Of a stretch of DNA of 64,000 bases, positions 44,378 through 52,688 are shown in pieces. The translations under genes and the position numbers were made by a program. Source of the DNA: the human T2T-CHM13v2.0 reference genome, Homo sapiens; assembly GCF_009914755.1 (NCBI RefSeq), contig NC_060927.1. The stretch is one strand, 5' to 3'. Under the pieces are notes generated by a model. That model was given only the letters and a program-made list of their open reading frames with translations. It was not told the origin of the DNA and did no database searches. How positions within the stretch are numbered: the stretch's first letter is position 1; every line of letters starts with the position of its first letter.

Positions 44378-44660
44378 CAAGCACAATGGCCACCATTTGG
44401 GTTGCCTTCTTCTCCCGAAGTGGCACTCCCCGAGGTTGCAGGGGCCCCAGCTTCAAAGATGTCGATAATCTGCCATTGCTGAGTTTTCGAACTTCTAAGC
44501 TGAGCTTGGGCGCTATGGTGGGACTCAGGGAATTCCGAGTCTTCTCCTCTCTTTTCAACTCTCCTCCTCTTTCTTGGAAGCCTGGTCCACCCAAGGCAGT
44601 GTCCTGGCAGATGCTGTAGTAACGCTTCAGCTCCAGATGTGCCGGGTCAGGAGAGAGGGT
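44378..44660 (-). CDS. DRD3: Dopamine D3 receptor exon 6 (third intracellular loop to start of TM6), 283 nt
   Basis: cctgcag|ACC CTC...GTG CTT G|gtaagt; [20 protein letters not shown]...[15 protein letters not shown]; phase 0 to phase 1, matching the neighbouring exons. Confidence 0.97.
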
Positions 44661-44723
44661 CTGCAGGTGTGACAAGAGGGAATCTTGACATTTCTGGGGG
44701 TATTGTTTATCTTCTGAATGTTC
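44661..44723 (-). other. DRD3: Intact 63-nt in-frame 5' extension of DRD3 exon 6 from an upstream acceptor ([21 protein letters not shown])
   Basis: ttctctggccctttcag|GAA CAT TCA...; open for 21 codons; resembles the recalled rodent D3 sequence. Confidence 0.8.
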
Positions 44724-44870
44724 CTGAAAGGGCCAGAGAATTCAAAGAAGGAAGACGGCAACACAGTTGTGGGAAACCTACAAAGGGAACATCTGAGGGA
44801 GTGGTGGGACCATGAGAAGTTAAGGGAAATGAAATTTGCTTTAGACTTTACAACTAAAAAGCACCCACCA

Positions 44871-50230: not shown

Positions 50231-50308
50231 CATTTTTCCTGTGGCATGTGATGGAAATCAGGCCCTTACTGACAACTGCTGAATGGGGTGCAGGTGCAGA
50301 CAAGAAGA
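50231..50308 (-). pseudogene. DRD3: Vestigial or poison 78-nt DRD3 exon (SSCLHLHPIQQLSVRA*FPSHATGKM) in intron 5
   Basis: CTAAC branch site 50341-50337; ccttcttctacaccccctgcccag| acceptor; ATG|gtaagt donor; phase 0/0; TGA at 50258-50260; resembles the recalled rat D3 loop. Confidence 0.85.
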
Positions 50309-52491: not shown

Positions 52492-52688
52492 TTGTTGGGG
52501 GAAGCCAGGCCTGACACTGTTGCACTGACTGTTCTGTCGAGTGAGGATCCTTTTCCGTCTCCTTTGTTTCAGCACCACATAGATTCTGGCATAGACAAGG
52601 ACAGTCACTCCAAAGGGCAGGTAGAAGGACACCACTGAAGAGTAGATGACAAAATCAGGGTTGGAGATGGAGCAGACAGTGGGGTCCC
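52492..52688 (-). CDS. DRD3: Dopamine D3 receptor exon 5 (ECL2, TM5, start of ICL3), 197 nt
   Basis: ctcatccacag|GG GAC CCC...CAA CAA|gtaagt; (G)[65 protein letters not shown]; TM5 catechol-binding serines. Confidence 0.98.

What the first reader, a model, noticed from the sequence alone, without database searches (positions are those of the whole stretch)
44661..44745. Upstream acceptor preserves an open 21-codon extension of exon 6 (rodent D3-long segment)
Seen: ttctctggccctttcag lies 63 nt upstream of the annotated acceptor, with an open frame [21 protein letters not shown] running straight into TLSPDPAH. Recalled: rat has [21 protein letters not shown] (19/21), and mouse D3 long/short isoforms differ by 21 aa through an internal acceptor. 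Inference: annotated human D3 corresponds to the short-acceptor choice, and an unannotated 421-aa human isoform with a longer ICL3 is encodable. The 26+21 codons account almost exactly for the 46-aa human/rat length difference.
Basis: partly seen in the sequence, partly recalled or inferred. Interest (0 to 1): 0.8.

Follow-up and report, generated by a model that had tools for sequence, protein, structure and literature searches.

The report
Intact rodent-type D3-long segment in human DRD3
Just upstream of a human dopamine D3 receptor exon lie 63 intact bases matching the extra 21 amino acids of the rodent "long" receptor, so a 421-residue human form could be encoded, but nothing here shows it is made.

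Summary
On the minus strand, ttctctggccctttcag (44740-44724) precedes 63 open, in-frame bases (44723-44661). They read [21 protein letters not shown] and run into TLSPDPAH. Exon 5 ends in phase 0.

The homology is real. The 21 residues taken alone from five mammals hit only this spot in the 64-kb window (E 3e-12 to 4e-8). Matches are 19/21 to Rattus rattus, 20/21 to tree shrew and 21/21 to a fruit bat. The annotated human acceptor aligns with the mouse D3Short junction. Six models in other mammals join exon 5 directly to the 21 residues, for example pig X3 at 421 aa.

Use in human is not shown. The supplied RefSeq table has no exon starting at 44723. None of 3 anthropoid cluster representatives carries the segment, and all 6 solved D3 sequences are the short form.

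An in-frame TGA disables them, so only 421 aa, not 447, is encodable. This contradicts a 2025 paper that calls this exon deleted in human.

Verdict: a real orthologous relic and a possible minor alternative acceptor. Interest is moderate.

The parts
44724..44740 (-). Upstream candidate 3' splice site: pyrimidine-rich tract plus AG (AG at 44725-44724)
   Evidence: sequence. Read in frame, the tract has TGG (GG at -11/-10) where 13 of 14 non-primate genomic read-through ORFs have a Phe codon and 1 has Cys.
44661..44723 (-). 63-nt open extension encoding [21 protein letters not shown]; orthologue of the D3-long-specific 21 codons. Under the current annotation it is the last 63 nt of the intron, and it ends with the AG of the used acceptor (44662-44661).
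   Evidence: It matches the consensus of 36 mammalian models at 20/21 and Rousettus P0008 at 21/21. It contains four internal AGs (G at 44714, 44711, 44694, 44684).
44378..44660 (-). Annotated DRD3 exon (RefSeq exon 6 of 7; equals mouse 'exon 7' entered at the short acceptor), encoding the rest of intracellular loop 3
   Evidence: Hub annotation table; translation. All 6 distinct solved D3 chain sequences match query residues 21-115 only.
52492..52688 (-). DRD3 exon 5, ending ...PGFPQQ in phase 0 with donor gtaagt
50231..50308 (-). Relic of the 26-codon cassette exon (mouse 'exon 6') inside the same intron. Acceptor ...ccctgcccag| and donor ATG|gtaagt are intact; an in-frame TGA lies at 50260-50258.
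   Evidence: tblastn with macaque P0032 gives E 1.3e-8; loris, rat and tree shrew queries give E 2.5e-7 to 4e-7. It matches the consensus of 35 models at 19/26, below every one of them (range 20-26).

Best explanation
The 63 nt at 44661-44723 are the human orthologue of the 5' part of the intracellular-loop-3 exon that rodents include in the 'long' D3 receptor and remove in the 'short' form by using an internal acceptor 63 nt downstream. In human the downstream acceptor (exon start 44660) is the one annotated and the one present in every cloned or solved receptor seen here. The 63 nt therefore now behave as the 3' end of the intron. They must also hold the branch site and pyrimidine tract of the used acceptor. 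This is inferred: the nearest upstream AG is only 23 nt from that acceptor's AG. The old upstream AG and most of its pyrimidine tract survive and the frame is intact. The site is therefore best seen as a preserved, at most minor, alternative 3' splice site whose product would be a 421-aa receptor with a 21-residue longer loop. Shown here: orthology, the intact frame, phase compatibility, and the equivalence of the human acceptor with the mouse short acceptor. Inferred: low or no use in human, and the dual role as splicing signal.
For: Sequence and frame. Orthology: tblastn alignments with loris, rat, tree shrew and pig proteins run without a break from the 21 residues into the exon, and the 21 residues alone give E 3e-12 to 4e-8 at exactly 44723-44661. 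The segment is widespread. Of 114 hits among 404 candidates, my pattern found 36 regular models carrying it. In one search, which also included the 14 short ORFs fetched, 31 carriers follow the 26-aa exon peptide and 6 join it straight to exon 5 (P0005, P0010, P0012, P0013, P0016, P0020). Mouse D3Short (P0082) and macaque P0032 start the exon at the position homologous to human 44660. Evidence for low use in human: the supplied RefSeq table has no exon at 44723; 0 of 3 anthropoid cluster representatives (P0032, P0035, P0099) carry the 21 residues, while the strepsirrhine Nycticebus P0007 does; neither region-restricted search found a near-identical primate protein (best 88%; 36 hits of 39 candidates, 15 of 15); all 6 distinct solved D3 sequences cover only the short form. 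The human tract has GG at -11/-10 where 13 of 14 other mammals have TTY, a possible weakening. Eight full-text searches found no open paper reporting a human +21-aa isoform.
Against: By the crude matrix the upstream acceptor scores higher than the used one (5.47 against 1.64), and it lies upstream, so some use would be expected. The human peptide matches the mammalian consensus at 20/21, as well as in species where the segment is annotated as coding (range 16-21). In contrast, the neighbouring 26-codon relic has decayed (19/26 with a stop). That contrast hints at continuing constraint. It is not significant by my own binomial arithmetic, run in no call: 1 against 4 human-specific changes gives p about 0.26. 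It could also reflect selection on splicing signals. Absence from annotation is weak evidence for a gene expressed at low level in few cells. The protein database is clustered at 90% identity, so a primate +21 isoform could be hidden inside a cluster. No RNA data, primate DNA or proper splice predictor was available.
Confidence: 0.7

Rival explanations
1. One reading: the upstream acceptor is a genuine, functional alternative 3' splice site in human, producing a 421-aa D3 receptor with a longer loop 3 that is simply missing from the annotation because DRD3 is rare and cell-type restricted.
For: Intact frame, phase-0 compatibility and conserved AG. A heuristic acceptor score above that of the used site. 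20/21 identity to the mammalian consensus while the adjacent cassette relic decayed. The same exon5->21-aa architecture is modelled in 6 other mammals.
Against: No transcript evidence could be reached. Nothing is listed in the supplied RefSeq table. No anthropoid protein carries it. The models in other species are computational predictions whose RNA support I could not see. An intact 63 nt is expected even under neutrality over the relevant time in a slowly evolving lineage, and the stretch has no CpG (sequence). An equid genomic ORF shows the segment can be lost without losing the receptor. Recalled, not seen: human and green-monkey cDNA clones are 400 aa, and RT-PCR studies across loop 3 reported only shorter variants.
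Confidence: 0.2
2. The stretch is conserved only as intron: branch point, pyrimidine tract and splicing enhancers or silencers for the used acceptor. The open frame is a by-product, and the upstream AG is never selected.
For: The used acceptor's AG-free zone is only 22 nt (nearest AG has its G at 44684), so its branch site must sit inside the 63 nt. The single human-lineage amino-acid change (Pro->Ser, CCC->TCC implied) keeps a pyrimidine.
Against: No strict branch-site motif (yTnAy) was found inside the 63 nt. Splicing signals rarely demand conservation of all 21 codons. The upstream AG with a good tract is hard to hide completely from the spliceosome.
Confidence: 0.09
3. Chance open frame with no real relation to rodent D3-long.
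For: A 21-codon open frame has about 0.36 chance, and frame +1 is open too.
Against: The segment alone gives E 3e-12 to 4e-8 at exactly this position and nowhere else in 64 kb, at the orthologous place next to the same exon.
Confidence: 0.01

Closest known systems
Mouse Drd3 long/short isoforms (UniProt P30728-2 'Isoform D3Short', seen as P0082; original description by Fishburn et al. 1993 is recalled, not seen)
   Same: The same exon, the same 21 codons, and the same pair of acceptors 63 nt apart. The human annotated acceptor aligns with the mouse short junction.
   Different: In mouse both acceptors are used, and the exon is entered from the 26-aa cassette exon. In human only the short one is annotated, the cassette exon is disabled, and the upstream tract carries GG at -11/-10.
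Predicted 421-aa D3 isoforms of other mammals (pig X3 P0010, Arctic fox P0005, Hipposideros bat P0012, Cnephaeus bat P0020)
   Same: Exactly the architecture proposed for human...PQQ joined directly to the 21 residues (QQ|EHSEDK... in pig; variant first residues in some), then the common exon. Pig differs from human at 1 of 21 residues.
   Different: These are computational gene models in species that still have an intact cassette exon. Their RNA support was not visible to me.
DRD2 D2L/D2S, and the 26-aa Drd3 'exon 6' cassette of Peglar and Fryxell 2025 (PMC12198306; I read the abstract, sections 6, 12 and 15, and term passages)
   Same: Also length variation of loop 3 by alternative splicing with phase-0 boundaries.
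   Different: That is a skipped cassette exon, not an alternative acceptor. The paper does not mention the 21-aa acceptor choice (0 occurrences of 'acceptor', 'Fishburn' or '21 amino'). It states that exon 6 was deleted in Homo sapiens, whereas the window holds it with a stop codon.
Human 367-aa DRD3 isoform (removal of 44426-44524 inside the same exon)
   Same: An annotated in-frame loop-3 length variant of the same exon (hub table; gt at 44524-23 and ag at 44427-26).
   Different: It shortens the loop by 33 residues through an internal intron, and it does not involve the 5' boundary of the exon.

Membership tests
Drd3 long/short alternative 3' splice site (rodent D3L/D3S type) | The extra segment is positionally orthologous to the 21 codons that differ between long and short forms | tested here: met
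   contiguous alignment at the exon boundary; 19-21 of 21 identical to placental sequences; the mouse D3Short gap equals these 21 columns.
Drd3 long/short alternative 3' splice site (rodent D3L/D3S type) | Upstream AG preceded by a pyrimidine tract, 63 nt from the internal acceptor | tested here: met
   Heuristic score rank 7 of 542 (matrix recalled from memory). The tract is interrupted by GG, which 13 of 14 other mammals lack.
Drd3 long/short alternative 3' splice site (rodent D3L/D3S type) | Open frame and phase compatibility with the upstream exon | tested here: met
   no stop in 21 codons; exon 5 ends in phase 0.
Drd3 long/short alternative 3' splice site (rodent D3L/D3S type) | Both acceptors actually used in mRNA of the species | not testable with these tools
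   No human RNA-seq, EST or long-read data were reachable. The supplied RefSeq table has no exon at 44723.
Drd3 26-aa cassette exon (mouse exon 6) | Homologous 78-nt exon flanked by phase-0 splice sites | tested here: met
   50231-50308, flanked by cag| and |gtaagt.
Drd3 26-aa cassette exon (mouse exon 6) | Intact reading frame | tested here: not met
   In-frame TGA at 50260-50258; 19/26 to consensus, below all 35 models.

The most novel reading that the evidence does not exclude
Human DRD3 still makes, in a restricted cell population, a 421-aa 'D3-long-like' receptor through the preserved 44723 acceptor. The nonsense-bearing 78-nt relic at 50231-50308, which keeps strong splice sites, could also act as a poison exon that tunes DRD3 output. 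Both would be missing from current annotation and from all pharmacology and structures, which use the 400-aa form.
Probability: 0.15. Interest if true: 0.65.

Novelty: new member of a known kind. Interest (0 to 1): 0.4.

Why it matters
D3 is a major target of antipsychotic, anti-parkinsonian and addiction drugs, and intracellular loop 3 governs coupling and trafficking. All human work and all solved structures seen here use the 400-aa form. If the preserved acceptor is used, there is an unstudied human receptor variant, and rodent D3-long data would have a human counterpart. Even if it is not used, the locus shows how primates reached the short receptor. The cassette exon was disabled by a stop codon rather than deleted. 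That finding corrects a 2025 evolutionary account (PMC12198306). The acceptor choice was fixed on the downstream site while the old coding segment stayed intact.

Tried and rejected

2. Papers. Eight full-text searches found no report of a human +63-nt or 421-aa D3 form. The primary papers that might bear on it were not held: Richtand 2006 (PMC1815380), Schmauss 1993 (PubMed id and PMC47477) and Schmauss 1996 (PMC6579200). Fishburn 1993, Giros 1990 and Griffon 1996 were neither found nor seen. The supplements of PMC12198306 were not opened and may list how human exon 6 was judged absent.

3. Primate evidence. Two region-restricted protein searches found no anthropoid sequence with the segment. 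This is weak evidence because clusters are at 90% identity. No primate DNA collection was available, so dN/dS or a frame check across primates could not be done.

4. Branch-point search. No strict yTnAy motif lies within 60 nt of either acceptor, so it was uninformative.

5. Splice strength. MaxEntScan and SpliceAI were not available, so the scores are heuristic.

6. Constraint test, 21 codons against the 26-codon relic: 1 against 4 human-specific residue changes, p about 0.26 by my own arithmetic. This is not significant.

7. A stronger-scoring AG 54 nt further upstream (exon start 44777, rank 2) was rejected as a coding extension, because a TGA lies in frame between it and 44723.

Full report
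**What is in the sequence**

DRD3 lies on the minus strand. One search shows ...gaattctctggccctttcag at 44743-44724, then GAA CAT TCA GAA GAT AAA CAA TAC CCC CAG AAA TGT CAA GAT TCC CTC TTG TCA CAC CTG CAG at 44723-44661. The annotated exon follows, starting ACC CTC TCT at 44660.

One search translates 44723-44378 without a stop. It reads [21 protein letters not shown] followed by [15 protein letters not shown]... Searches show that exon 5 (52492-52688) ends ...CCC CAA CAA|gtaagt, in phase 0. A junction 52492->44723 would therefore insert exactly 21 residues into the 400-aa receptor. All coordinates and strings in the finding are correct.

**Is it more than chance?**

Openness alone is not. 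Twenty-one sense codons occur with probability about 0.36, and frame +1 of the same 63 nt is also open. The homology is decisive.

A search of the 5.8-billion-protein collection with the 115-residue translation returned 114 D3 receptors among 404 candidates. I cut the 21-residue segment out of five of them by script and searched the six-frame window. Each hits only 44723-44661:

| Source protein | Identity to human | E-value |
|---|---|---|
| Rousettus (fruit bat), P0008 | 21/21 | 3e-12 |
| Tupaia (tree shrew), P0023 | 20/21 | 1.4e-11 |
| Nycticebus (slow loris), P0007 | 19/21 | 6.8e-11 |
| Rattus rattus, P0039 | 19/21 | 9e-11 |
| Gracilinanus (a marsupial), P0087 | 15/21 | 3.6e-8 |

The next-best hits have E >= 0.19.

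**How the segment sits in other mammals**

A note on numbering. RefSeq calls 44378-44660 exon 6 of 7. Peglar and Fryxell (PMC12198306) number by mouse, where a 26-codon cassette is exon 6 and this exon is exon 7.

One search lists the loop-3 junctions of all 114 hits. Four architectures recur:
- cassette plus 21 residues (about 446-447 aa);
- cassette without the 21 (425-426 aa), including mouse 'Isoform D3Short' P0082 and macaque P0032;
- no cassette but the 21 residues (421 aa), in 6 models: P0005, P0010, P0012, P0013, P0016, P0020;
- neither (399-400 aa).

In the alignment the gap in mouse D3Short and in macaque covers exactly the 21 columns filled by the human translation. The annotated human acceptor is therefore the homologue of the mouse internal (short) acceptor. 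The rat-type protein has 26+21 extra residues and one single-residue gap later in the loop, which gives the known 46-aa difference.

**The 26-codon partner**

tblastn with the macaque, loris, rat and tree-shrew proteins also finds the cassette exon inside the same human intron, at 50231-50308 (E 1.3e-8 for macaque, 2.5e-7 to 4e-7 for the others). Searches show an intact acceptor (...ccctgcccag|TCT), an intact donor (ATG|gtaagt) and the translation SSCLHLHPIQQLSVRA*FPSHATGKM. The TGA lies at 50260-50258.

The relic matches the consensus of 35 mammalian models at 19/26, lower than any of them (range 20-26). Four of its residues (H5, L12, the stop and H21) are unique to human when compared with macaque, loris, colugo and tree shrew.

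Peglar and Fryxell conclude from protein alignments that exon 6 was deleted from the human gene by recombination between its flanking introns. The window shows instead a nonsense-disabled exon with its splice sites intact. For the present finding this means that a rodent-like 447-aa form is not encodable in human. Only the direct exon5->44723 join is.

**State of the 63 nt in human**

I compared the human peptide with 36 models that carry the segment. Models that my pattern did not fit were left out, among them the marsupial with an 8-residue insertion. The human peptide matches the consensus at 20/21, within the upper range of species in which it is annotated as coding (16-21). The following 21 constitutive residues match at 17/21. 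The single difference, Ser for Pro at position 15, also occurs in pig, camel, fruit bat and a marsupial.

This contrasts with the decayed cassette relic, but the numbers are small. With 1 against 4 human-specific changes over 63 and 78 nt, an equal-rate model gives p about 0.26 (my own arithmetic). The stretch also has no CpG. An intact frame is therefore what neutrality would give over a few tens of millions of years in this lineage.

The stretch must also carry splicing signals for the used acceptor. AGs occur with their G at 44714, 44711, 44694 and 44684. The AG-free zone before the used AG is thus only 22 nt, and the branch site is presumably inside the 63 nt. That last step is inference.

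**The two acceptors**

The upstream site scores 5.47 and ranks 7th of 542 AGs between exon 5 and this exon. The used site scores 1.64 (rank 37) and the cassette relic 0.52 (rank 59). On that crude measure some use of 44723 would be expected.

Against this, the human tract reads, in frame...I L W P F Q. Fourteen genomic read-through ORFs or models from non-primate mammals have Phe (13) or Cys (1) at the Trp position. Human therefore has GG at -11/-10 where the others have TTY or TGY. No strict branch motif was found near either site.

**Evidence on use in human**

None could be obtained directly.
- The RefSeq table supplied with the finding lists four transcripts, none with an exon starting at 44723.
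- Among cluster representatives, 0 of 3 anthropoids (macaque P0032, titi P0035, gibbon P0099) carry the 21 residues. Of the two strepsirrhines seen, Nycticebus P0007 carries it and the Otolemur X2 model P0102 does not.
- Two searches scored only on residues 1-40 found no protein above 88% identity (36 hits of 39 candidates; 15 of 15). Clustering at 90% identity could hide an isoform.
- All 6 distinct D3 sequences in the PDB (10 entries) align to query residues 21-115 only, the short form.
- Eight full-text searches found no report of a longer human form.
- A review (PMC5562332, passages only) lists a D3S form lacking 21 residues among D3 variants without naming the species. Another review (PMC7830622, passages only) says UniProt has two described human isoforms and one computationally mapped one.
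- The primary papers on rodent isoforms and human RT-PCR were not held. My recollection that human and green-monkey clones are 400 aa, and that only shorter variants were reported, is recall and not a result.

**A natural control**

One unnamed genomic ORF (P0129) is 95/95 identical to Equus przewalskii D3 over the constitutive exon part. Upstream it reads ...RNIQKINNI, the +1 frame of the segment, before returning to PQKCQDPLLSHLQ. This implies an indel inside the 21 codons. The Equus model is 426 aa, with the cassette and the short acceptor (P0046). The long segment therefore appears to have been lost in at least one lineage with the receptor retained, which argues that it is dispensable. 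A sequencing error in a C-run cannot be excluded.

**Conclusion**

Human DRD3 keeps the D3-long-specific 21 codons intact, in frame, behind a surviving AG, and the annotated protein corresponds to the short-acceptor choice.

The functional claim remains untested. The most likely state (about 0.7) is a preserved relic that now serves mainly as the 3' end of the intron and is at most a minor alternative acceptor. A genuinely used 421-aa isoform has perhaps 0.2. The kind of event is already known in mouse and modelled in other mammals, so this is a new member of a known kind. Interest is moderate. The accompanying discovery that the cassette exon is nonsense-disabled rather than deleted is a useful correction to the literature.

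Noticed in passing
window 50231-50308 (-), TGA at 50260-50258: Relic of the 26-codon Drd3 cassette exon (mouse exon 6), with intact acceptor and gtaagt donor but an in-frame stop. A 2025 paper (PMC12198306) states this exon was deleted from the human gene. With its splice sites intact it could act as a poison exon.
   Followed up: partly
protein P0129 (unnamed genomic ORF; 95/95 identical to Equus przewalskii P0046 over the exon): The 21-codon segment appears frame-shifted in an equid (first part read in the +1 frame, then back in frame). This fits horse models having only the short acceptor (426 aa). A sequencing error in a C-run is not excluded.
   Followed up: partly
window 44777-44779 (-): Another high-scoring AG (exon start 44777, rank 2 of 542 with the recalled matrix) lies 54 nt upstream of 44723. 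An in-frame TGA lies between them, so it cannot extend the coding frame.
   Followed up: yes
window 44684-44685 (-); proteins P0043, P0048, P0100, P0109: Some mole, mole-rat and bat models start the exon at ...QQ|DPLLSH, using an AG at the end of the Gln-13 codon inside the 21-codon segment. In human that codon is CAA, so the AG there (caAG|at) is out of frame.
   Followed up: partly
window 44426-44524 (-): The 'other transcript' in the hub table removes 99 nt bounded by gt...ag inside the exon. This is an in-frame 33-residue loss giving the 367-aa isoform. The same form is modelled in gibbon (P0099) and several rodents.
   Followed up: partly
window 44731-44733 (-): Read in frame, the pyrimidine tract of the upstream acceptor has TGG (Trp), where 13 of 14 non-primate genomic read-throughs have a Phe codon. 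This is a candidate primate-lineage weakening of that acceptor.
   Followed up: partly
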